Assembly (NCBI GenBank): GCA_947643225.1
Contig: CANRVH010000004.1
Coordinates: 1-57,171, forward strand
Origin: an uncultured Clostridia bacterium
GTDB taxonomy: Bacteria > Bacillota_I > Bacilli_A > RF39 > UBA660
DNA: 57,171 nucleotides
Direction: 5' to 3'
Shown: positions 13,314 to 40,667 of the stretch, one piece after another
How the letters are laid out: every line of letters begins with the position of its first letter
Position numbering within the stretch: the first letter of the stretch is position 1
The notes under the pieces: generated by a model
Told to the model about the DNA's origin: nothing
Seen by the model: only the letters and a program-made list of their open reading frames with translations
Database searches by the model: none
Translations under genes and position numbers: made by a program

Positions 13314-13344
13314 TTAAATAGATATAATAGGAGTGAGTGGTTTT

Positions 13345-15204
13345 ATGATTTTGAGTTCTTTATATTTGCCAACTTGTTGTCTGTTTTTTAGTATTTTGCT
13401 TAATATTGTATTTTTTTCTAAGCAAAGAATTACTAGTTATGAAACAAAATTATATAAAATACTAATCGTTTCTAATCTGATTTCTCTTATAATGGAGTTT
13501 ATTTGTACTTATTTTTCTTATCATTATACATTTTTTGTTAGTGATTTTGTTATTAAAACTTATTTAATGATATTGCTGTTATGGATTACTACCTTTACGA
13601 TTTATATTAATAATATATCCAAAATTTCTAAGTTGGAAGAAAAAAAGTTTAACTATTTGAAAAGAATTTGGGTATATCTTTTATTTTATAGTATTGTTAT
13701 TATTATTATTATTATATTACCCATTAAATATAGGATTACCCAATATGGAGCAAATGCTTATGGAATGAGTGTAGATGTGATATATGTAGTTAGTTTAATT
13801 TATGCAATTACATGGTTATTTTCTTTGTTTAAAAATATTAGAAATATTCGTAATAAAAGATATTTGCCATTGTATATTTATTCTGTTCTTAGTTTTATTA
13901 TTGCCTATATGCAAAGACTATATCCAGGATTGTTATTAATCACACCAGTAGAAACATTTGTTACATTTTTAATGTATTTTACAATTGAAAATCCTGATTT
14001 ACAGATGATTAGTGAACTTAATATTGCAAAGGGCGAGGCAGATAGAGCGAATAAGGCAAAAACTGAATTTCTTGCTAATATGTCTCATGAGATCAGAACC
14101 CCTCTTAATGCGATAACTGGTTTTAGTCAGGCGTTATCTGAAGAAGAAGGAATGCCTGATAGCGCTAAAGAGGATATTCGAGATATTATTTCTGCTTCTA
14201 ATAGTCTTTTAGAAATCGTTAATGGAGTTTTAGATATTTCTAAAATTGAGGCAAATAAAATAGAAGTTGTCAATAAGGTTTATTCGCCTAGTGAAATTTT
14301 TCGGGATTTACAATCGTTGACTAAAGTAAGAATTGGTAATAAACCAATTGAGTTTCGTACTTATATTGATTCGACAATTCCTAAAAGGTTATATGGTGAT
14401 CAGGGAAGAATCAAACAAATTATTTTGAATTTGCTGACTAATGCTGCTAAGTATACTGAAGAAGGATATATTGATTTTAAAGTTAGTTCCTTGGTTAAGG
14501 ATGATGTATGTAGGTTTATTATTTCAGTTGAGGATACAGGTAAGGGAATTAAATCTGAACAAATTGATCGTTTATTTAATAAGTTTGATCGATTAGATGA
14601 AGAGGAAAATATTACAATTGAGGGAACAGGCCTTGGACTTGCAATTACTAAAAAATTATTGGAATTGATGAATGGTGAAATAACTGTTCAGAGTGTTTAT
14701 GGAAAAGGATCTAAATTTACTGCTTATATTGATCAAAAAATAGTAAGAGAAGAAAATACTGATATTGATCAATCAGAAAAATTAGAGGTCTTGACAGAAA
14801 CTAGTAATCCTGTTTATGATTATACTAACCGAAAGATATTAGTAGTAGATGATAATAAACTCAATTTGAAAGTTGCACAAAAGTTGCTTAGTAAGTATTG
14901 TGTTCAAGTAATTCCTGTTCAAAGTGGTTTTGAATGTATTGATAAAATTAATTTAAAGGAAGAGTTTGATTTAATTTTATTAGATGATATGATGCCTAAG
15001 ATGAATGGAAAAGAGACCCTAAAAAAATTAAGGGAAATAGAGAATTTTAATATTCCTGTTGTTGCTTTAACTGCTAATGCTTTATCAGGGATGCGAGAAG
15101 AATACTTGAATCAGGGATTTGATGATTATTTGGCAAAACCGATTGAAAAGGTAGAATTAGAAAAAGTTTTGGAGACTTTTTTAGGAGGGAATAATAAAAT
15201 ATGA
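13345..15204 (+). CDS. Hybrid sensor histidine kinase (multi-TM sensor, HisKA, HATPase_c, REC)
   Basis: ATG 13345 follows AGGAG. There are about 7 TM helices, then the H-box [18 protein letters not shown] boxes ([28 protein letters not shown]) and a C-terminal receiver (ILVVDDN...[11 protein letters not shown]...ALTANA). Confidence 0.9.
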
Positions 15205-15953
15205 AAGATAGGAACTTTTTAATTCAAAATGGGGTAAATATTGAGAAAAGTTTAGAATTATTTGGTGATATGGAAACCTATAATGAAACCTTAAAAGATT
15301 TTGTTACAGAGATTACTACTAAGAAAAGTAATTTGGAAAAATATAAGGAAATATCTGATATGGCTAATTATGCTATTTATGCTCATTCAGTTAAAAGTGA
15401 TTCTAAATATTTTGGTTTTGATCATTTAGCTGAGCTTGCTTTAAATCATGAAATGGCCGGCAAACAAAACAATATGTATTATGTTTCTGAACATTTTCCT
15501 GAATTTATATCAGAGCTTGATCGAGTTTTAAATATTGTTAGAGAATATATGGGAATGGATGTTGTTAAGGAGGAGATTAAAAGTATAGATGGAAATAAGG
15601 CTACCATACTAGTAGTAGATGATTCGGCAGTAATTAAAAGATTTATTCAAACTGTTTTTCATCAAAAATATCAAGTTTTGGAGGCTACAGATGGAAATGA
15701 AGCAATTCAGATTATTCGTAGTGGCAAGTATAATATTAGTGCAATGCTTCTTGATTTAAATATGCCTAATGTTAATGGACTTCAAGTACTTGAATATTTT
15801 AGGCAGAATAATTTATTTCATCAGATTCCAACAACAGTAATTACTGGTGTTGGTGCAGATGAGATTCTTTTAGAGGTAAAGAAGTATGATATTAGAAAAA
15901 TTATATTGAAACCATTTAATGAAAGGGATATTAGAGGTGCTGTAGAGGTATAA
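15201..15953 (+). CDS. Hpt-REC phosphotransfer/response-regulator protein without an output domain
   Basis: The start overlaps the kinase stop (ATGA). The N-terminal Hpt motif is [13 protein letters not shown]. The C-terminal receiver is [10 protein letters not shown]...[11 protein letters not shown]...KPF. There is no DNA-binding or enzymatic domain. Confidence 0.8.
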
Positions 15954-15977
15954 AAGAATAATATAGAGGTGATAGAA

Positions 15978-16403
15978 ATGAAAAAAATTAATTTAAATCA
16001 AAATACAAAGGTGATTGTTGCAGTTTTAGTTGTTCTTTTGGCAATCGTTTTTGGGTTTGTAGCTACTAAGATTATGAAGGGAAATAATCGTAATGATGTA
16101 GCAACGATTTCTAAGAAGTTAATTGAAGATAAGAAGTATGGAAACTTAACTTTTTCTGATATAGAAGTAATTGAAGAAAAAGAGTTAAATCATATAGCAA
16201 TTAATGTTATTAATCACTCTAATGAGGCTTTTAAACAAGAGTATGTTAACGTTGTATTTAGAAAGGAAAATAATGAGGTGATTGATACTATGGGGGTTGT
16301 TATACCAGATACTGAGGCGAATGGAAATTCAAGAATTGATATGGTAGTAGATAAGAAAGTATTAAAGTCTTATACTTTTACAATTGAAAAGAGTAAAGAG
16401 TAA
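15978..16403 (+). CDS. Small N-terminally anchored extracytoplasmic protein, unknown function
   Basis: ATG 15978 follows AGAGG. One TM helix (VIVAVLVVLLAIVFGFVA) is followed by a beta-rich domain of about 110 aa. Confidence 0.55.
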   Translation: MKKINLNQNTKVIVAVLVVLLAIVFGFVATKIMKGNNRNDVATISKKLIEDKKYGNLTFSDIEVIEEKELNHIAINVINHSNEAFKQEYVNVVFRKENNEVIDTMGVVIPDTEANGNSRIDMVVDKKVLKSYTFTIEKSKE

Positions 16404-16511: not shown

Positions 16512-17684
16512 ATGACCAATAAAGATATGCGAATAAATCTATTTGTAATTGTACCATTACTATTAACAGTTATTTTAATTGGAGGAGGGATAACTTATGC
16601 CCTTTTTACTAAAACGGTTAATACTGATAAAGAGATTATAGTCGGTACAGGAACAAAGTATATTGGAATATATGGGGAGGGAAAGAATGATATCCAACTT
16701 GGAAAAAGGTATACTTTTACTGTTGAAAACAGGGGAGTTGTTAGTTCAGGGTATGAACTTTATTTGGAGCATGATGGTAGTAATACAATTTCTCCAGTAG
16801 ATATTATCTGTAATATAACTTCTACTTCTTCATCTATTGCATCTCCAAATATTCAAGTAACAGCAGATAAAACAACTTTAGTAGTAGGAGATTTGGTAGC
16901 AGGAGAAAAGGATACGATTACAATAGAACTTACAGGAGATACTAGTTTAATTTATAGGGGAAAAATAAAACTTAGATATGTAGATTATCGTACTCCGGAT
17001 TCACCTAAAAATAGAAATATAGTAGCAATATATACTTATAATGATGTGGAAGGATCAGATAATTATTGTGTATCAGGTGATGAGGCTACATGCCAATATT
17101 CAAAGTGTTATAAAGAAGAGTCTGAGGGTAGTTGCCCTGCTGGAACAATTGTAAAATATAAAGTAAATAGTACCACAACTAAAGATTTTCATGTATTATT
17201 TGATCGAGGAAATGTGTTGGTTATGCAGACTCGAACAGCAGTTTTAAATATGATAAAATGGAATGAGAATAATGTTAATAGTGAAGGACCTATAACCATT
17301 TTGGCTGCTTTAGAAAATGCAACTGAAAATTGGAATAATGTACATGATCTTACTTATACATTAGGTGGTGCTTCATTAACAGGGGATACGATGTATACAG
17401 GGTGTAATAATAATTTAAAGTGTGAAACAAATACTTATACTCTTTCAGAAAGAACAGCAAAGGCGAGATTACTTACATTACAAGAAGCAACTAGTTTTGG
17501 ATGTGGATGGAGTAATAATTCTTGTCCAAAATACTTAACACCAGCAAGTGGATCTTATTGGACCTCTTCTAGTTACTCATCGAATGAAAAGGATGCTTTT
17601 TTGGTTTATAGTTCAGGGTTTGTTAGTCGTATTGGTTCTGCTCAACAAAGTGGTACTTTTGCAGTAGTAGAAATTTCAAAATAA
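16512..17684 (+). CDS. Secreted/anchored two-module protein: TasA/camelysin-like N-domain plus Cys-rich lectin-like (DUF1566/Lcl-C-like) C-domain
   Basis: GAGAGG SD. The signal/anchor ends in GGGITYALFTKT, close to the Bacillus TasA/CalY pattern GGGT(W/F)A.F.D. Strand motifs YTFTVENRG and YELYLEHDG are shared with the ORFs at 19034, 19638 and 24365. The C-terminal 225 aa are paralogous to 32064-32738 and end in ARLLTLQEA...YWTSS...A(F)...(x)..VV, like DUF1566. Confidence 0.55.
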   Translation: MTNKDMRINLFVIVPLLLTVILIGGGITYALFTKTVNTDKEIIVGTGTKYIGIYGEGKNDIQLGKRYTFTVENRGVVSSGYELYLEHDGSNTISPVDIICNITSTSSSIASPNIQVTADKTTLVVGDLVAGEKDTITIELTGDTSLIYRGKIKLRYVDYRTPDSPKNRNIVAIYTYNDVEGSDNYCVSGDEATCQYSKCYKEESEGSCPAGTIVKYKVNSTTTKDFHVLFDRGNVLVMQTRTAVLNMIKWNENNVNSEGPITILAALENATENWNNVHDLTYTLGGASLTGDTMYTGCNNNLKCETNTYTLSERTAKARLLTLQEATSFGCGWSNNSCPKYLTPASGSYWTSSSYSSNEKDAFLVYSSGFVSRIGSAQQSGTFAVVEISK

Positions 17685-17699
17685 TAATTTTAAATTAAA

Positions 17700-17738
17700 A
17701 GAGTTATGACTGTATTATATGTCATAGCTCTTTTTTTG
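17700..17738. terminator. Bidirectional terminator between convergent genes
   Basis: AGAGTTATGAC (17700-17710) pairs with GTCATAGCTCT (17721-17731) with one G-U, followed by T7. The stop codon of the minus-strand gene (17715-17717) sits in the loop. Confidence 0.7.
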
Positions 17739-31820: not shown

Positions 31821-32738
31821 ATGAGAATAATATTTAAAAAGAATTTTAATATATTAATAGGAATTATAATAATTGTAATACTATTGTGTGGAGGAGTATA
31901 TGCGGCAACAACAATTGCGGGAAATAGTATTACATATTCTAATACTAAGTCAGGTCTAAAATCTACTAATGTTCAAGGAGCAATTGATGAATTATATGAA
32001 ACTGCCAAATCACATTGTCCAGATGGTCATATTTGTTCATCACTTGTAAGGATAAAAGATAAAAACTCTAATATAGTAAAAGCTTATTTATATGACGAGG
32101 AAAATAGTAATAGTAAATGTATAATAGGTGATGAGTCAACTTGTAAAGAAACAACCTGTATAAATTATTCAAATCAGAATTATTGTCCATCAGGAACGAT
32201 CATTAAATATAAAGTGAACAGTTCAACAATAAAAACATTTTATGTTATATTTGATGAAGGAAAAACAATGACTATGATTGATCAGGAAGATACAGTTAAG
32301 GGTATTTCATGGAATGCCACATCTGATATTACAAAAGGCCCAATTACAGCATTAGTATCTTTAGAAAATATCACAAAAGGATGGACCAATGTTAATAATC
32401 AAACTTATACCTTAGGTAAAACTTCTTTATCTTTAGAGGGAGCTTATACAGGATGTAGTACAGCAAGTTCGTGTACAACTAATATCTATACTTTATCAGA
32501 ACGAACAGCAAAAGCAAGATTAATTACAATACAAGAGGCGTATGCGTTAGGGTGTACAGTATCACATAATTCATGTCCAAAATGGATTGTTCTTGGTAGT
32601 TCTCATTGGACATCTTCTGTTTATGTTTCAAGTCCCAATTCCGCTTATTATATTAATCATTCTGCTTTCTCAAATGTTTATTATACAAATGTTGATAATG
32701 AGATAACTGCACATGCTGTTGTTGTAGTTTCAAAATAG
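31821..32738 (+). CDS. Secreted/anchored protein with a Cys-rich lectin-like (DUF1566/Lcl-C-like) C-domain, paralog of 17010-17684
   Basis: GAGGTGA SD. The anchor ends in LLCGGVYAATT, followed by an ITYSN..SGL.STNVQGAIDELY stalk motif. The C-terminal 225 aa align colinearly with the 16512 gene, including 8 conserved Cys and the identical string YTLSERTAKARL. Confidence 0.55.
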   Translation: MRIIFKKNFNILIGIIIIVILLCGGVYAATTIAGNSITYSNTKSGLKSTNVQGAIDELYETAKSHCPDGHICSSLVRIKDKNSNIVKAYLYDEENSNSKCIIGDESTCKETTCINYSNQNYCPSGTIIKYKVNSSTIKTFYVIFDEGKTMTMIDQEDTVKGISWNATSDITKGPITALVSLENITKGWTNVNNQTYTLGKTSLSLEGAYTGCSTASSCTTNIYTLSERTAKARLITIQEAYALGCTVSHNSCPKWIVLGSSHWTSSVYVSSPNSAYYINHSAFSNVYYTNVDNEITAHAVVVVSK

Positions 32739-37160: not shown

Positions 37161-40100
37161 ATGATGAAAAAGTTGAATGATAGAGCATTTACAATGATAG
37201 AGTTAATTGCGGCAATTACCATTATGGCATTATTGATGCTTATTATTATTCCTAATATTTTTGGTATTGTTGAAAAAAATAAAAAAACAACTTATTTAAA
37301 TGATGCTAAACAACTTATTACTATGGCTAAAAATCAATATGAGGCAGATCCTACAATTACTGAGCCAACTGATTCATTATGTTTAGTATTTAGACTTAAG
37401 GATTTAAGAAAATCGGGTCTTGAGAAAGGTCCAAATGGTGGAAAATATAATGGCACCTATTCTTATGTTACAATTAATTATGAATCTGGTAAATATATTT
37501 ATGGTGTTCAACTTCTTGAGGAGTATTCAACGAGAGGGAAAAGTAATTATCGAGGTATTGCTTATACTAAACAGGCTGATTTACAAAAAAGTAATATTGA
37601 AAAAAATACCAATTCTATGGAAAATTATACAGATCTAAGCTCTTTATCTGTTTCAAGTTCTTGCCCAAATGGGTTAGTTTTTTCTGATGGTAGTATTGGT
37701 AATAAAGATAATCTAGATAGTGAGATAAAAGAGGGAGATGTATTAACAGTAAATTATAGAATAGGATCTAATGTGGAAGAAATTGGTTCTGAGGTAGCAA
37801 CTTGTACTGTACCAGAATCAAAAAAGTATTGTATAGTTACATTACCTTCTATTAAGGCAAAAGATGGATATAATAGTGTAGGTTGGTCAAGATCAAAGGG
37901 TGCACGATCAGGAGATAAACAATCGATATATTTAACCAAAATAAGTAGTGTGTATTATGCTAATGCTATTGATGATATTGCTCCAGCTATCAATCTTTCT
38001 AAGCAAGAAGATCAACTATATACTAAGGAAAAAGCAATAGATGTTGATTTAGTTGATTTAGGAGTTGGGTTAGATCAAGATATCGTTGTAAAATATGGTT
38101 GGTCTTTATCTAATAATGTAGAACCTGGAAATTATATCGAGGTTAAGCCAGATTACCAAAAAGGAAGTAAGAAAGTGACTTTTCAAGCAGAGGGAAATAA
38201 TTTGAATGGTGATTATTATTTATGGGTTGAACCAATTAATTTGCAGGATATAGAGGGAAATGAAAATAAGAAGAAAATTATATCTGAAGGTGTGTTTAAA
38301 TATAATATTACTCGTCCAGCTTGTCGTTTTACTAATATTAACTCTACGATAGTGGGGGATCAAGAAACAATATTGTTAACTTGTACAGATGATGAAACCA
38401 GTGTAATTAGTCAAAACCTTACTATTGATGATTTTTCTGTATCATCGGATAATGGCAAAATAGTATCTGTAAGTGATGCAAGAGAAGTAGCGAATGGATA
38501 TGAGTATCAGGTTACTGTTGAGGGAGTGGGAACAGGTGGTTTTTCTGTCGTTTTTTCTAAAGATAAAATTCAAAACGGCGCAGGTAATATGAATGAGGAA
38601 ACATCTAGTCCAGAAATAGTTGTTAATGGGAAGGTTTATCATGTTCAATATATATTAGGAGATAATATGTCTAATATAGATGATGGTGAGGAAAATTGTA
38701 CAACGACAGGTAAAAGTTTAGAATGTGAAATAATGCTACCAACAATTAAGGCAAACGATGGATATACTGCAGATGGATGGTATTATAATAATACTAAGAT
38801 TGGGGAAAATGGCCAGTATATAATTAGTGGAGATATTCAATTAAATGCAAAAGTTAAACCACGTGTATATACTGTGATTTATGATTATGAAACAAATGGT
38901 GGGACTTCTGTAGCAATTACTCCAAATTCAGGAATTACTGAGATTAAGGAATTAGAGCGAATTGGAGAATTTGCTTATACAGGAGATCAGATTATAAAAA
39001 AAGAAGAGAAAAGAATTGAGGCAATTAAAAACAATTGGGAGTTTGTAGGCTGGAATACTGATCCTGATGAGGTGATAGCATTAGATGAGTATTACATAAC
39101 AAATAAGTTATCCCAAGATGTGGATCAAATTACTCTTTATGCAATTTTTAGAAGGAGAAAAACTGCTAAGGTCTATTATTATAATCCAGAAGAAAGAGAC
39201 TCATTTGAAGAAGTTAGTTGTTATATATACAATAATGCTCCAGATGAAGATGTTTGTAATTTTACTATACCAGATAAAGTAGAAAAGAGTGCACCAGAAG
39301 GATTTAATTATGTTGGATTATTATCTAATTGTTTAGAAGATTGGACAATAGATTCACAAATGACAGATCAATCTGAAGATAGGATAGAATATACTAGTGA
39401 AAATCCAGTTTATTATGCGGTTTATCATAATAGTTATGTAGTTAACTATATTAAAGAAGATACTATAGATAATATTATAGATACTATCCAAGATGAAGGT
39501 GATGAGGAGCCTGATACTGGTGAAGATTCTGGAACTGATGAGAAAGATGATACTAACAAGGGACCAGAAACTAGTGAGGAGTCCGATATTAATGGGGGAT
39601 CTGGAACTGGTGAGACGCCTGATATTAGTGGAGGAACGGATACTAATACTGATGAGGGAGTTGATACCGATGGGGATAATAATGAAGATACAAAAAATAA
39701 TATCATTCAAATTTTATTTGATGCTTATTTATATCATAGAACGGGTTATGATACATCATACAATATTAAATTGCCAAAACTAACACCACGTCGTGGATAT
39801 ACTAATACTAAATGGACAGAGATTTTAGATAGCGAGGGAACGAAGGGGAATATTTTTGCACCAGAACAAGTTTATACATTAACAAGTAGTACAACAACCT
39901 TTTCTGCAAGTGCCGAGGATATTGAAAAACCAACATGGTCAATAGTAAGTGCTGAAAAAGACTGTAATGATTTAAAAATTACTATACAAGGCTCGGATAC
40001 TTCTGGACAGACTATAAGTAGTTTAAAACTTGATAAGCTCTCAATAAAAATTGGTGGAAAAGAAAATAGTCAAGGATTAAATACAACATTATCTGAAATT

Positions 40101-40667
40101 CCATCAGAGTCATCAGAGTTTATAGGAGGAACAGTACAACATGTTTTAACAATTAAGAATTATAATCAACAAGGAGAGATTAATATTACTATATCAGAAT
40201 CTACCTTAAGAGATGGTGCTGGAAATACCAATGTTACCACTTCATTAATTTATCCTGAAACAGGAATTTATGATGTTTGTGAACCAGATGAACCAACATG
40301 GACAATAATAAGGGTTGAAGAGGATTGTGATAGTTTAAGAATTATTTTACAAGGTACTAGTCCATCTGGTAAAGTAGAGAGTAATTTAAAATTGGAAAAT
40401 TTAGTAATTGAGCTTGGAAATGAAAATATTTCTGAATCTACAACAGTAGAAAAAGTTCTATCTAAAGTTTCATCAGAGTCATCAGAATTCATTCAAGGTT
40501 CAGTTCAATATATTTTAACATTGAAGGGTTACAATCAAATAGGAGATGTAAAGATTAATATCTCAGCAGCTACCTTAGAAGATGAAGCAGGGAATATGAA
40601 TCAGGCTGTCTTATCTAGTTATCCTAAGGAAGAAATTTATCATATCTGTCAATCTACAACTTCATAG
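37161..40667 (+). CDS. Giant modular type IV pilin-like (class III signal) surface protein
   Basis: GGAG lies at 37151-37154, then ATG 37161. The N-terminus MMKKLNDRA/FTMIELIAAITIMALLMLIIIPNI has a short basic leader, Ala at -1, Phe+1, Glu+5 and a hydrophobic helix of about 20 aa, very like ComGC/pseudopilins. About 1130 aa follow. They contain several Listeria-Bacteroides (Flg_new)-type repeats (..LP.IKA.DGY...GW), Ig-like modules ending in x-(A/E)-G-N-x-N, and an acidic D/E/T/G linker at 39480-39700. Confidence 0.7.
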   Translation: MMKKLNDRAFTMIELIAAITIMALLMLIIIPNIFGIVEKNKKTTYLNDAKQLITMAKNQYEADPTITEPTDSLCLVFRLKDLRKSGLEKGPNGGKYNGTYSYVTINYESGKYIYGVQLLEEYSTRGKSNYRGIAYTKQADLQKSNIEKNTNSMENYTDLSSLSVSSSCPNGLVFSDGSIGNKDNLDSEIKEGDVLTVNYRIGSNVEEIGSEVATCTVPESKKYCIVTLPSIKAKDGYNSVGWSRSKGARSGDKQSIYLTKISSVYYANAIDDIAPAINLSKQEDQLYTKEKAIDVDLVDLGVGLDQDIVVKYGWSLSNNVEPGNYIEVKPDYQKGSKKVTFQAEGNNLNGDYYLWVEPINLQDIEGNENKKKIISEGVFKYNITRPACRFTNINSTIVGDQETILLTCTDDETSVISQNLTIDDFSVSSDNGKIVSVSDAREVANGYEYQVTVEGVGTGGFSVVFSKDKIQNGAGNMNEETSSPEIVVNGKVYHVQYILGDNMSNIDDGEENCTTTGKSLECEIMLPTIKANDGYTADGWYYNNTKIGENGQYIISGDIQLNAKVKPRVYTVIYDYETNGGTSVAITPNSGITEIKELERIGEFAYTGDQIIKKEEKRIEAIKNNWEFVGWNTDPDEVIALDEYYITNKLSQDVDQITLYAIFRRRKTAKVYYYNPEERDSFEEVSCYIYNNAPDEDVCNFTIPDKVEKSAPEGFNYVGLLSNCLEDWTIDSQMTDQSEDRIEYTSENPVYYAVYHNSYVVNYIKEDTIDNIIDTIQDEGDEEPDTGEDSGTDEKDDTNKGPETSEESDINGGSGTGETPDISGGTDTNTDEGVDTDGDNNEDTKNNIIQILFDAYLYHRTGYDTSYNIKLPKLTPRRGYTNTKWTEILDSEGTKGNIFAPEQVYTLTSSTTTFSASAEDIEKPTWSIVSAEKDCNDLKITIQGSDTSGQTISSLKLDKLSIKIGGKENSQGLNTTLSEIPSESSEFIGGTVQHVLTIKNYNQQGEINITISESTLRDGAGNTNVTTSLIYPETGIYDVCEPDEPTWTIIRVEEDCDSLRIILQGTSPSGKVESNLKLENLVIELGNENISESTTVEKVLSKVSSESSEFIQGSVQYILTLKGYNQIGDVKINISAATLEDEAGNMNQAVLSSYPKEEIYHICQSTTS
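39930..40664 (+). repeat. Tandem duplication of a 121-aa (363-nt) Ig-like module at the pilin C-terminus
   Basis: PTWSIVSAEKDCNDLKITIQG...SESSEFIGGTVQHVLTIKNYNQQGEINITISESTLRDGAGNTN begins at 39930. PTWTIIRVEEDCDSLRIILQG...SESSEFIQGSVQYILTLKGYNQIGDVKINISAATLEDEAGNMN begins at 40293. Confidence 0.85.

What the first reader, a model, noticed from the sequence alone, without database searches (positions are those of the whole stretch)
17010..17684. TasA-like domain fused to a Cys-rich lectin-like module that recurs 14 kb away: candidate fibre-tip adhesin
Seen in sequence: residues from about 167 to 390 of the 16512 gene align colinearly with residues from about 82 to 305 of the 31821 gene (nt 32064-32738), with roughly half the positions identical by eye.
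- Shared strings include CP(A/S)GTI(V/I)KYKVNS, GPIT.L..LEN.T..W.NV...TYTLG, and YTGC....(K/S)C.TN.YTLSERTAKARL(L/I)T(L/I)QEA..(F/L)GC......SCPK(Y/W).
- There are eight conserved cysteines.
- The tail (ARL.T..E ... (S/H)(Y)WTSS ... A(F/Y).(V/I) ... VV) resembles the DUF1566/Lcl-C-terminal, C-type-lectin-like family pattern (RLPT..EL ... YWSST ... A..V.F..G ... V).

Only the 16512 copy carries the TasA-like N-domain.

Inference: a polymerisable subunit carrying a binding module would be a natural tip or decorating adhesin for the fibre. The second copy carries the same head on a different stalk. Four probable disulfides in an nrdD-bearing anaerobe's surface protein are also notable.
Basis: partly seen in the sequence, partly recalled or inferred. 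Interest (0 to 1): 0.7.

Follow-up and report, generated by a model that had tools for sequence, protein, structure and literature searches.

The report
Lectin-fold head on TasA-like stalk
Two surface-protein genes of an uncultured low-GC gut bacterium share a 225-residue, cysteine-stapled domain with a C-type-lectin-like fold; it belongs to a large unnamed family that always sits at the outer end of fibre-subunit or membrane-anchored stalks, so it is most likely a binding head for adhesion.

Summary
Residues 166-370 of ORF16512 and 81-283 of ORF31821 are 49% identical (E 1e-63), and all eight cysteines are conserved.

The shared module has no Pfam, NCBIfam or PDB sequence match. It models at pLDDT 95.5. 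Its best fold matches are:
- the DUF6273 N-terminal domain of the Thomasclavelia ramosa IgA protease;
- phage DUF6273 proteins;
- the Legionella Lcl C-terminal domain (DUF1566);
- classical C-type lectin domains.

So the "lectin-like" reading holds at fold level, with DUF6273 closer than DUF1566.

The module defines a large family (1,292 clusters at 50% identity). I found it only in a few uncultured gut Bacilli/"Tenericutes" MAGs, with more than 30 loci in one MAG, and not in phage, plasmid or viral collections. It always lies at the end opposite the membrane anchor. Stalks include TasA-like domains (about one third), a transmembrane helix plus an NVQxAIDEL motif, type IV pilin-like N-termini, and LRR or Flg_new repeats.

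The N-domain of ORF16512 is homologous to three stand-alone paralogues (19019, 19638, 24365). It links to the TasA superfamily only through intermediate sequences.

"Adhesive head on a fibre subunit" is the best reading. The tip position, cleavage, polymerisation and ligand are untested. I rate it a new variant of a known kind.

The parts
16512..17684 (+). ORF16512, 390 aa: N-terminal signal/anchor, TasA-superfamily-like beta-sandwich and C-terminal lectin-fold head
   Evidence: ORF and translation. AGAGGTG ribosome-binding site 6 nt upstream. Ortholog P0047 is 56% identical and lies in the same gene order.
16512..16601 (+). Residues 1-30: hydrophobic helix ending in GGGITYA|LFT, a SipW/TasA-class signal-peptide-like motif. 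Cleavage is inferred.
   Evidence: The model shows a helix at residues 3-29. 'GxSYAxF' is the most conserved N-terminal element of the family, and A30 is nearly invariant. Related members hit Peptidase_M73, TasA, BsaA and cognate_SipW models here.
16602..16661 (+). Residues 31-50: unstructured N-terminal extension, a candidate donor strand
   Evidence: Low pLDDT (53-64) and no secondary structure in the monomer model. TasA-superfamily donor strands are likewise unstructured in monomers (bioRxiv 10.64898/2026.01.04.697558). This is an inference.
16662..17006 (+). Residues 51-165: eight-strand beta-sandwich (strands to residue 157) plus a short linker; homologous to ORFs 19019, 19638 and 24365
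   Evidence: Model pLDDT is above 90 for most of residues 51-160. The family HMM gives E 2e-25. Pairwise against ORF19638, E 2e-4.
17007..17684 (+). Residues 166-390 plus stop codon: 225-aa head module, an enlarged C-type-lectin fold with four Cys pairs
   Evidence: AF2 pLDDT 95.5, pTM 0.92. Foldseek results. hhalign against DUF6273: probability 55%, E 1.2e-4. Cys-pair statistics.
31821..32738 (+). ORF31821, 305 aa: N-terminal TM helix, conserved motif, short Cys-containing linker, then the same head module
   Evidence: Ribosome-binding site. Ortholog P0002 is 70% identical and lies in a syntenic dut-X-ftsA position.
31929..32000 (+). Residues 37-60: ITYSNTKSGLKSTNVQGAIDELYE, the signature motif of the 'type A' stalk
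   Evidence: Conserved in 49 of 188 family proteins. An almost identical string occurs in a gut-phage protein encoded directly upstream of two DUF6273 genes.
32061..32738 (+). Residues 81-305 plus stop codon: second copy of the head module
19019..19591 (+). Stand-alone TasA-like paralogue (190 aa), a candidate fibre subunit
   Evidence: Family HMM E 3.7e-23. Against ORF19638, E 9e-13.
19638..20219 (+). Stand-alone TasA-like paralogue (193 aa), closest to the family consensus
   Evidence: Family HMM E 6.7e-46, matched over its full length.
24365..24976 (+). Third stand-alone TasA-like paralogue (203 aa)
   Evidence: Family HMM E 1.5e-34. Translation.
15969..16403 (+). Small TM protein (144 aa) directly upstream; conserved with the fusion gene in the ortholog locus; not a TasA-like paralogue
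   Evidence: Not hit by the N-domain HMM. Its only homolog in the fetched loci is in L086, E 1.5e-52.
13333..15953 (+). Hybrid sensor kinase (13333-15204) and receiver-domain protein (15201-15953) directly upstream and co-directional; possibly regulatory
   Evidence: ORF13333 hits HisKA, HATPase_c and Response_reg. The second ORF's receiver domain is read from its translation and from Response_reg on the 249-aa ortholog in L086; it was not scanned itself. The same order occurs in L086. Any link to the adhesin is an inference.
17715..18896 (-). O-antigen-ligase-like membrane protein between the fusion gene and the small paralogues
   Evidence: PF13425 at 91.5 bits. A gene on the opposite strand sits at the same position in L086.

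Best explanation
**What the genes encode.** ORF16512 and ORF31821 encode exported surface proteins. Their outer end is a 225-residue binding head: an enlarged C-type-lectin-fold domain, most like DUF6273, braced by four local disulfides.

**ORF16512.** The head is fused to a TasA-superfamily beta-sandwich. That domain is preceded by a SipW-class signal motif and a flexible N-terminal strand. The same domain is encoded alone by three neighbouring genes (19019, 19638, 24365). The most likely mechanism has four steps:
1. The protein is exported.
2. It is cleaved after the conserved ..TYA motif.
3. It joins a fibre built from the small paralogues by donor-strand complementation.
4. It thereby carries the head on the fibre, probably as the first-incorporated, distal subunit. 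This is the logic proposed for TafC of archaeal tafi and known for FimH/PapG.

**ORF31821.** It presents the same head close to the cell, on a short N-terminally anchored stalk.

**The ligand.** The head binds an unknown ligand, which could be a glycan or a protein from the host, from food or from another microbe. Specificity probably lies in the hypervariable C-terminal third of the domain.

**Shown.** The repeat, the fold, the family and its architectures, and homology of the N-domain to the paralogues.

**Inferred.** Cleavage, polymerisation, tip position, disulfide formation and adhesion.

**Confidence.** The figure of 0.55 is for a surface-displayed lectin-fold binding head on a TasA-superfamily stalk. 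The specific claim that it sits at the fibre tip deserves about 0.3.
For: **The repeat.** 49% identity, E 1e-63.

**The fold of the head**
- AF2 model pLDDT 95.5.
- Best PDB fold match is 9qa6, the T. ramosa IgAse: E 3e-3, probability 1.0, 254 columns. Its N-terminal domain is described as an enlarged CTLD (PMC12237041) and annotated DUF6273 (PMC12402451).
- Next come Lcl_C (8q4e, probability 0.87) and dozens of CTLDs.
- In the viral structure library, DUF6273 proteins and tail-fibre/receptor-binding proteins match at E 1.8e-6 to 1e-3, TM about 0.5.
- hhalign of the head family against 30 DUF6273 proteins is colinear over 181 columns (probability 55%, E 1.2e-4). YWT.S aligns to WWLRSP and GARAVV to GvRPaLIL.

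**Disulfides.** The cysteines are kept or lost in neighbouring pairs.

**The head is always distal**
- In 161 of 179 proteins it is at the extreme C-terminus, behind an N-terminal anchor or signal.
- The other 18 are almost all signal peptide, head, low-complexity linker and C-terminal TM (one has a different Cys-rich tail).

**Partner stalks are surface or fibre modules**
- TasA-like: 63 of 188.
- Peptidase_M73 above threshold in P0054 and P0052.
- N_methyl pilin motif in P0160.
- LRR_5, Flg_new and Ig-like repeats.

**The N-domain**
- The family HMM hits four window ORFs.
- Bridging members hit TasA, BsaA or Peptidase_M73 and also match a leave-out HMM over its full length, E 1e-19 to 1e-27.
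- The best PDB profile hit is AbpX, a TasA-superfamily donor-strand fibril protein, E 0.006.
- The monomer model has a disordered segment between the TM helix and the sandwich.

**Conservation.** Orthologs of both genes occur in syntenic loci.

**Diversification.** Sequence variation and loop insertions are concentrated in module positions 166-215. Paralogues are expanded, with more than 30 loci in one MAG.

**Precedent.** TafC of tafi has a pilin-like N-domain and a C-terminal lectin-type domain. It is predicted to be the tip and initiator (PMC11821415).
Against: - ORF16512's N-domain has no direct hit to TasA/Peptidase_M73 models.
- The Foldseek search of its N-domain model gave only generic beta-sandwich matches, with TasA not in the top 50.
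- The ORF16512 subfamily lacks the PISDxxG loop and the RLWID motif of typical members, so it may not have a normal acceptor groove.
- No SipW-type or other signal peptidase gene was found among the window ORFs I scanned. The N-terminal helix could therefore remain as an anchor.
- The head reaches no curated family threshold, and 55% hhalign probability is not proof of homology.
- I saw no EPN/QPD or WND carbohydrate-binding motif on reading the sequences, so there is no evidence of sugar binding.
- Model coordinates could not be inspected, so S-S geometry is unverified. The Cys pairs could also bind metal.
- There are no expression or localisation data.
Confidence: 0.55

Rival explanations
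1. Both proteins are monomeric, membrane-anchored adhesins. The N-terminal helix is an uncleaved type II anchor. The TasA-like sandwich of ORF16512 is only a rigid spacer, and no fibre is involved.
For: - No signal peptidase gene was found in the window.
- The monomer model shows a long TM helix at residues 3-29.
- ORF31821 and 49 other family members use a simple TM-plus-short-stalk design.
- The ORF16512 subfamily lacks motifs that are conserved in typical TasA-like members.
- The lineage is labelled Tenericutes-like in several MAGs, and membrane-anchored adhesins are usual in that group (background knowledge).
Against: - The strongly conserved GxSYAxF motif lies exactly at the end of the helix. 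It is typical of a processing site, and relatives match SipW-cognate, TasA or BsaA models there.
- Three stand-alone paralogues of the same domain lie nearby. A mere spacer would not need them.
- The same head is also fused to type IV pilin-like N-termini.
Confidence: 0.25
2. The fusion protein polymerises with itself, or alternates with the small paralogues. The result would be a fibre decorated with heads along its whole length (a multivalent 'bottle-brush' adhesin), rather than a single tip copy.
For: - In TasA-type donor-strand assembly the donor strand is N-terminal, so a C-terminal appendage need not block elongation (inference from PMC9674648).
- In the sampled MAG loci, fusion genes (46) outnumber stand-alone N-domain genes (17).
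- Some members carry two heads in tandem.
Against: - The loci were selected by the head, so that ratio is biased.
- The ORF16512 subfamily's N-domain is atypical, which fits a specialised subunit better than a bulk one.
- Nothing here can distinguish a tip copy from decoration along the fibre.
Confidence: 0.12
3. The head genes are remnants of prophage tail-fibre or receptor-binding proteins, and serve no cellular function.
For: - The closest fold relatives include phage DUF6273 proteins, tail-fibre proteins and receptor-binding proteins.
- The NVQGAIDEL stalk motif recurs in a gut-phage protein next to DUF6273 genes.
Against: - There is no sequence match in 50,697 phage records, in plasmids or in IMG/VR contigs.
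- Both genes sit among housekeeping genes (murG, murB, nrdD, dut, ftsA, ftsZ), and their orthologs are syntenic.
- No phage genes were found among the neighbouring ORFs scanned.
- The proteins have N-terminal export signals or anchors, which are not features of virion proteins.
Confidence: 0.03
4. The head does not bind external ligands. It acts instead on the cell's own envelope, as a wall- or polysaccharide-binding anchor or as an enzyme. This would explain why the genes lie in the cell-wall/division gene region.
For: - The genes lie next to murG, murB, an ftsQ-like gene, an O-antigen-ligase-like gene and ftsA/ftsZ.
- P0025 lies next to FemAB genes.
- C-type-lectin folds include enzymes such as FGE (background knowledge).
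Against: - The head is always at the end opposite the membrane anchor, often behind long repeat stalks of up to 3,300 residues.
- The family is hypervariable and expanded in paralogues, which is typical of outward-facing binding proteins.
- No enzyme was among the top 50 fold matches to the head domain itself.
Confidence: 0.05

Closest known systems
DUF6273 (PF19789): N-terminal domain of Thomasclavelia ramosa IgA protease; gut-phage 'tentaclin' and DGR-target proteins
   Same: - Enlarged C-type-lectin fold of about 200 residues.
- Best fold matches in both the PDB and the viral library.
- Colinear profile-profile alignment, with the aromatic-W-x-S and G-x-R-x-x C-terminal motifs aligned.
- Placed at the distal end of surface or virion proteins.
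- Found in gut Firmicutes and their phages (PMC12237041, PMC12402451, PMC10743442).
   Different: - The Pfam HMM does not hit at E<=1 in any of 21 members.
- hhalign probability is only 55%.
- This family has four conserved Cys pairs, whereas the IgAse N-terminal domain lacks tethering disulfides and has a Zn site.
- It is not found in phages.
- There is no DGR template repeat in the window.
- It is C-terminal rather than N-terminal.
DUF1566 / Lcl C-terminal domain (PF07603; PDB 8q4e, Legionella collagen-like adhesin)
   Same: - Compact CTLD core at the C-terminus of an adhesin stalk.
- Second-best PDB fold match (probability 0.87).
- Weak HMM hits in 2 of 21 members.
YWTSS ... AVV).
   Different: - It covers only about 78 of 225 residues (TMq 0.22).
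- It scores below Pfam's threshold.
- The window's own two copies give no hit.
- The N-terminal half of the module, with two Cys pairs, has no counterpart.
TasA superfamily fibre proteins (TasA, camelysin/CalY, BsaA, archaeal AbpA/AbpX, tafi)
   Same: - N-terminal SipW-class signal motif, a flexible N-terminal strand, then a beta-sandwich.
- Several paralogues clustered in the genome.
- Relatives of the N-domain hit Peptidase_M73, TasA and BsaA models, and the family profile hits AbpX.
   Different: - ORF16512 itself gives no direct hit.
- There is no adjacent sipW or tapA gene.
- It carries a large C-terminal head that TasA, CalY and AbpX lack.
- Polymerisation is untested.
TafC of haloarchaeal Tat-fimbriae; functionally FimH/PapG of chaperone-usher pili
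   Same: Two-domain logic: one pilin-like domain for incorporation by donor-strand exchange, plus one lectin-type binding domain. TafC has the pilin-like domain N-terminal and the lectin-type domain C-terminal, as here.
   Different: - TafC's head is a laminin-G/ConA-like domain, and FimH/PapG have N-terminal lectin domains of another fold.
- Export routes differ (Tat, or chaperone-usher).
- TafC's tip position is itself only predicted.

Membership tests
DUF1566 / Lcl_C (PF07603) | Match to the Pfam HMM at or above its gathering score | tested here: not met
   Neither window copy hits at E<=1. Only 2 of 21 family members hit weakly, best E 0.0093.
DUF1566 / Lcl_C (PF07603) | Compact C-type-lectin-like fold superposable on the Lcl C-terminal domain (8q4e) | tested here: inconclusive
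   Foldseek E 0.06, probability 0.87, 78 aligned columns, TMt 0.36. The core is similar, but it covers only a third of the module.
DUF6273 (PF19789) | Match to the Pfam HMM at or above its gathering score (23.5 bits) | tested here: not met
   DUF6273 is not listed for any of the 21 members at E<=1. Genuine phage DUF6273 proteins score 60.7 and 38.9 bits.
DUF6273 (PF19789) | Remote homology by profile-profile comparison | tested here: inconclusive
   hhalign A2 against A5: probability 54.8%, E 1.2e-4, 181 colinear columns.
DUF6273 (PF19789) | Same fold as solved or predicted DUF6273 domains | tested here: met
   The top PDB match is the IgAse chain, whose N-terminal domain is DUF6273 (E 3e-3, probability 1.0, TMq 0.46). 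BFVD DUF6273 proteins match at E 1.8e-6 and TM up to 0.53 (query-normalised) or 0.67 (target-normalised).
Canonical Ca2+-dependent C-type lectins (PF00059) | Lectin_C HMM match and the EPN/QPD plus WND calcium/sugar-binding motifs in a long-loop region | tested here: not met
   There is no Lectin_C hit. I saw no EPN/QPD or WND motif when reading the sequences and alignments; this was not a systematic pattern search. Fold matches to CTLDs have E of about 0.4 or higher.
TasA / camelysin superfamily (PF12389, NF046066, TIGR04090) | Match of the N-domain to a curated family model | tested here: inconclusive
   ORF16512 gives no hit. Homologous N-domains do hit: P0054 scores 41.5 bits against a 22.5-bit cut-off, 3 of 28 members hit Peptidase_M73, and one member hits BsaA (7e-7) and TasA (1.5e-5). 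Those bridging members match a leave-out family HMM over its full length.
TasA / camelysin superfamily | SipW-dependent-type signal peptide (TIGR04088) and a dedicated SipW-type signal peptidase | tested here: inconclusive
   A conserved GxSYAxF motif lies at the end of the helix. TIGR04088 hits only 1 of 28 members, at E 0.055. No signal peptidase gene was found among the window ORFs scanned. The rest of the genome was not available.
TasA / camelysin superfamily | Jelly-roll or beta-sandwich core resembling TasA/AbpX | tested here: inconclusive
   The model is an eight-strand sandwich (pLDDT 81). The Foldseek list is generic (PapG pilin domain, CBM35, CsuA/B) and TasA is not in the top 50. 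The sequence profile hits AbpX at E 0.006.
TasA / camelysin superfamily | Polymerisation by N-terminal donor-strand complementation | not testable with these tools
   No multimer prediction is available. The only related observation is a disordered segment at residues 31-50 in the monomer model.
Diversity-generating-retroelement target proteins (CTLD with C-terminal variable region) | A nearby template repeat matching the 3' end of the gene, and a reverse transcriptase | tested here: not met
   No second copy of either 3' region exists in the window apart from the paralogue itself. No reverse transcriptase was found among the scanned ORFs.

The most novel reading that the evidence does not exclude
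Uncultured gut Bacilli build TasA-type donor-strand fibres whose ends are capped by interchangeable lectin-fold heads drawn from a large paralogue repertoire. Two kinds of protein would supply the caps. Fusion proteins such as ORF16512 bring their own pilin domain. 'Type A' proteins such as ORF31821, after cleavage at their conserved GVYA|A motif, would contribute only an N-terminal strand plus the head, making them strand-only capping adhesins. If so, this is a modular, swappable-tip adhesion system in a Gram-positive commensal lineage. It would also be evolutionarily linked to the receptor-binding modules of gut phages, through the shared NVQGAIDEL stalk motif and the DUF6273-like head.
Probability: 0.1. 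Interest if true: 0.8.

Novelty: new variant of a known kind. Interest (0 to 1): 0.55.

Why it matters
**The lineage.** The organisms carrying this family are uncultured, small-genome, low-GC gut Bacilli known only from metagenomes. How they attach to host, mucus, food particles or other microbes is unknown.

**The family.** It has no annotation: at least 1,292 clusters at 50% identity, and dozens of paralogues per genome. The head has a confident C-type-lectin-type fold and sits on fibre-subunit-like stalks. That makes it a concrete candidate for their adhesin repertoire.

**TasA-type fibres.** It would extend TasA-type fibres from biofilm scaffolds to adhesin-bearing organelles in bacteria.

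**Immediate uses.** The head is a compact 225-residue domain with a high-confidence model. It is a practical target for recombinant binding screens and for a new Pfam entry.

Tried and rejected
- **SafA pilin similarity.** A single-sequence hit to Saf-Nte_pilin/SafA (PDB E 1e-5; Pfam 16.5-20.6 bits, below the 25-bit cut-off) vanished when the family profile was used (0 PDB hits at E<=10). I rejected it as a compositional or chance match.
- **Phage or plasmid origin.** tblastn against phages and plasmids, and a scan of IMG/VR, found nothing.
- **DGR hypervariation.** There is no template repeat in the window.
- **ORF15969 as a fourth TasA-like paralogue.** The family HMM does not hit it, and its only homolog is in the ortholog locus.
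- **Exact-sequence look-up of the two window proteins.** Neither is on record.
- **Word-indexed search with the ORF16512 N-domain.** It returned a single hit, P0189, which was too little to use.
- **Promoter and terminator scans.** Counts equalled those in shuffled sequence, so they are uninformative in this AT-rich DNA.
- **hhalign of the head profile against a single DUF6273 protein.** It gave nothing. Only the comparison against an alignment gave a signal.
- **Foldseek of the N-domain model.** It returned only generic beta-sandwiches.
- **Alternative genetic code.** I considered this for an in-frame TGA in a relative (L068). Other long ORFs of that MAG end in TGA, so it is more likely a nonsense mutation or a sequencing error.
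Full report
**1. The observation**

ORF16512 (16512-17684, 390 aa) and ORF31821 (31821-32738, 305 aa) are intact plus-strand ORFs with ribosome-binding sites.
- BLASTP aligns residues 166-370 of the first with 81-283 of the second: 49% identity, 66% positives, two gaps, E 1e-63.
- Over the full 225-residue module the pair is 46% identical.
- DNA identity is about 70% and confined to the most conserved stretch, so this is an old duplication.

**2. What the shared module is**

It matches nothing at curated thresholds in Pfam, NCBIfam or PHROGs. As a family profile it matches nothing among PDB sequences. A single-sequence match to the SafA pilin disappeared with the profile and is rejected.

An AlphaFold2 model built from a 21-sequence alignment is very confident (pLDDT 95.5, pTM 0.92).

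Fold matches in the PDB:
- The best match is the Thomasclavelia ramosa IgA protease, over 254 columns (E 3e-3, probability 1.0).
- Next is the Legionella Lcl C-terminal domain (DUF1566, probability 0.87).
- Then comes a long series of C-type lectin-like domains.

The IgA-protease N-terminal domain is described as a double-sized CTLD (PMC12237041) and is annotated DUF6273 (PMC12402451).

In the viral structure library the top matches are DUF6273 proteins, tail-fibre proteins and receptor-binding proteins (E 1.8e-6 and up, TM about 0.5). DUF1566 proteins rank lower. DUF6273 is a CTLD that serves as a DGR-diversified receptor-binding domain in gut phages (PMC10743442).

A profile-profile comparison of the head family with 30 genuine DUF6273 proteins is colinear over 181 columns. 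It aligns YWT.S with WWLRSP and the terminal GARAVV with GvRPaLIL, but reaches only 55% probability (E 1.2e-4).

Conclusion: the module is a C-type-lectin-fold domain, closest to DUF6273. It is not a formal member of either family. I saw no canonical Ca2+/sugar-binding motif on reading the sequences.

**3. Cysteines**

Across 166 aligned modules the eight cysteines are kept or lost as four neighbouring pairs:

| Pair | Both present | Both absent | One only |
|---|---|---|---|
| C21/C29 | 164 | 0 | 2 |
| C34/C43 | 113 | 50 | 3 |
| C133/C139 | 158 | 5 | 3 |
| C166/C173 | 159 | 6 | 1 |

This is the pattern expected of four local disulfides. The model coordinates could not be inspected, so geometry is untested and metal binding is not excluded.

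**4. The family**

An exhaustive HMM search of 1.84 billion representatives found 1,292 clusters at E<=1e-3 and 212 at E<=1e-30.

In species-representative genomes the module turned up only in a handful of uncultured gut MAGs. These are labelled Bacilli, Tenericutes or Erysipelotrichaceae, with two probably mislabelled. One MAG has more than 30 loci and another about a dozen.

It was absent from phage records, plasmids and IMG/VR contigs.

Placement of the module:
- Of 179 proteins with a complete module, 161 carry it at the extreme C-terminus.
- The other 18 almost all have a signal peptide, the module, a low-complexity linker and a C-terminal TM helix.
- So the module is always at the end away from the anchor.

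N-terminal partners among the 188 family proteins collected:
- a TasA-like domain: 63
- a TM helix followed by the motif YDNSxSGLxSTNVQxAIDEL: 49
- a plain signal peptide: 34
- type IV pilin-like N-termini: 13, with N_methyl confirmed in P0160
- other: 20; module incomplete: 9

Longer stalks contain BspA-type LRR, Flg_new and Ig-like repeats.

Sequence variation and loop insertions concentrate in module positions 166-215. Both window copies lack a loop of roughly 17 residues that most relatives have.

**5. The N-domain of ORF16512**

An HMM built from the N-domains of 61 other head-bearing proteins, with the window excluded, hits four window ORFs and nothing else, including ORF15969:

| Window ORF | E-value |
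|---|---|
| 19638 | 6.7e-46 |
| 24365 | 1.5e-34 |
| 16512 | 2e-25 |
| 19019 | 3.7e-23 |

So the fusion's N-domain is homologous to three stand-alone paralogues.

The link to TasA is indirect:
- ORF16512 has no direct hit.
- Homologous N-domains hit Peptidase_M73 above threshold (P0054, 41.5 bits), and the BsaA and TasA models.
- Those bridging proteins match a leave-out family HMM over its full length.
- The family profile's best PDB hits are AbpX chains (E 0.006). AbpX is a TasA-superfamily protein that polymerises by N-terminal donor-strand complementation.

The monomer model (pLDDT 81) has a TM helix (residues 3-29), a disordered segment (31-50) and an eight-strand sandwich. Its fold search was non-specific.

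The most conserved N-terminal element is GxSYAxF at the end of the helix. From my recollection of the TasA sequence, this resembles the SipW cleavage region.

No signal peptidase gene was found among the window ORFs scanned.

**6. Context and conservation**

Both genes lie among housekeeping genes:
- ORF16512 follows a hybrid sensor kinase, a receiver-domain protein and a small TM protein.
- It precedes an opposite-strand O-antigen-ligase-like gene, two TasA-like paralogues, murG, murB, an ftsQ-like gene, a large membrane protein and the third paralogue.
- ORF31821 lies between dut and ftsA/ftsZ.

Orthologs:
- The ortholog of ORF16512 (P0047, 56% identity) has the same flanking order.
- The ortholog of ORF31821 (P0002, 70% identity) is in a syntenic locus.

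This excludes a prophage origin.

**7. Mechanism**

The best-supported reading is a surface-displayed binding head.

For ORF16512, the head would be delivered onto a TasA-type fibre through its pilin-like domain. For ORF31821, it would be held near the membrane on a short stalk.

A published, predicted precedent for a pilin-like N-domain plus a C-terminal lectin-type domain at a fibre tip is TafC of tafi.

Rivals that the evidence cannot separate well:
- an uncleaved membrane-anchored adhesin;
- a fibre decorated with heads along its length.

Cleavage, polymerisation, position in a fibre, disulfide formation and ligand are all inferences.

**8. Verdict**

[quoted passage not shown] Its fusion to TasA-superfamily domains, and its expansion in uncultured gut Bacilli, appear not to have been described in the literature I searched.

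Novelty: new variant of a known kind. Interest: 0.55.

Noticed in passing
window 24365-24976 (+): A third stand-alone TasA-like paralogue (203 aa) lies between a large polytopic membrane protein gene and tex (family HMM E 1.5e-34). In the syntenic relative L003, an extra head-module gene (L003 2453-3370) sits directly after the equivalent gene. That extra gene is absent from the window.
   Followed up: partly
window 37161-40667 (+): A giant (~1,170 aa) protein has a type IV pilin-like N-terminus (RAFTMIELI; N_methyl 22.5 bits, above cut-off), a sub-threshold Flg_new match, and two long, near-repeated C-terminal segments. A similar 1,181-aa protein occupies the same position in L003.
   Followed up: partly
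window 13333-16403 (+): A hybrid sensor kinase, a receiver-domain protein and a 144-aa TM protein are tightly packed directly upstream of ORF16512. The receiver protein, the small protein and the fusion gene recur in the same order in the ortholog locus L086. This may be a dedicated regulatory unit for the adhesin.
   Followed up: partly
window 17715-18896 (-) and 22960-24297 (+): An O-antigen-ligase-like membrane protein (PF13425) and a 445-aa polytopic membrane protein with no Pfam match are interleaved with the TasA-like genes and murG/murB. They might glycosylate or anchor the surface proteins.
   Followed up: no
window 19662-19670: An A9 homopolymer lies in codons 9-11 of ORF19638, the TasA-like paralogue closest to the family consensus. 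It could act as a slipped-strand on/off switch, or it could be chance in 27% GC DNA.
   Followed up: no
L030 5992-6005; L068 775-777: In related MAGs some fusion genes are split exactly between the N-domain and the head. One split is a frameshift at an A8 tract (L030). The other is a TGA replacing the invariant Gly codon of CxTGEE (L068). These could reflect phase variation, pseudogenes or assembly errors.
   Followed up: partly
L085 (phage contig MT835625.1) 2216-4448: A human-gut phage contig encodes a protein containing YSNTGSGLEATNVQGAIDEL, nearly identical to the stalk motif of ORF31821. It lies immediately upstream of two genuine DUF6273 genes. This hints at a shared stalk-plus-head module between phage fibres and these cellular proteins.
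   Followed up: partly
window 17007-17684 and 32061-32738: Both window copies of the head lack a loop (average about 17 residues; 'NYLxxSTSYGGTVN...') that most family members have after the CPxW motif, including the ortholog P0047. This is in the most variable part of the domain.
   Followed up: partly
L007 and L023 (MAG CASRZP01): Some family proteins carry two head modules in tandem.
   Followed up: no
window 31821-31910: The TM helix of ORF31821-type proteins ends in a conserved G-V-Y-A-A motif, which resembles the GxSYAxF motif of the TasA-like class. The two classes might share the same processing enzyme.
   Followed up: no
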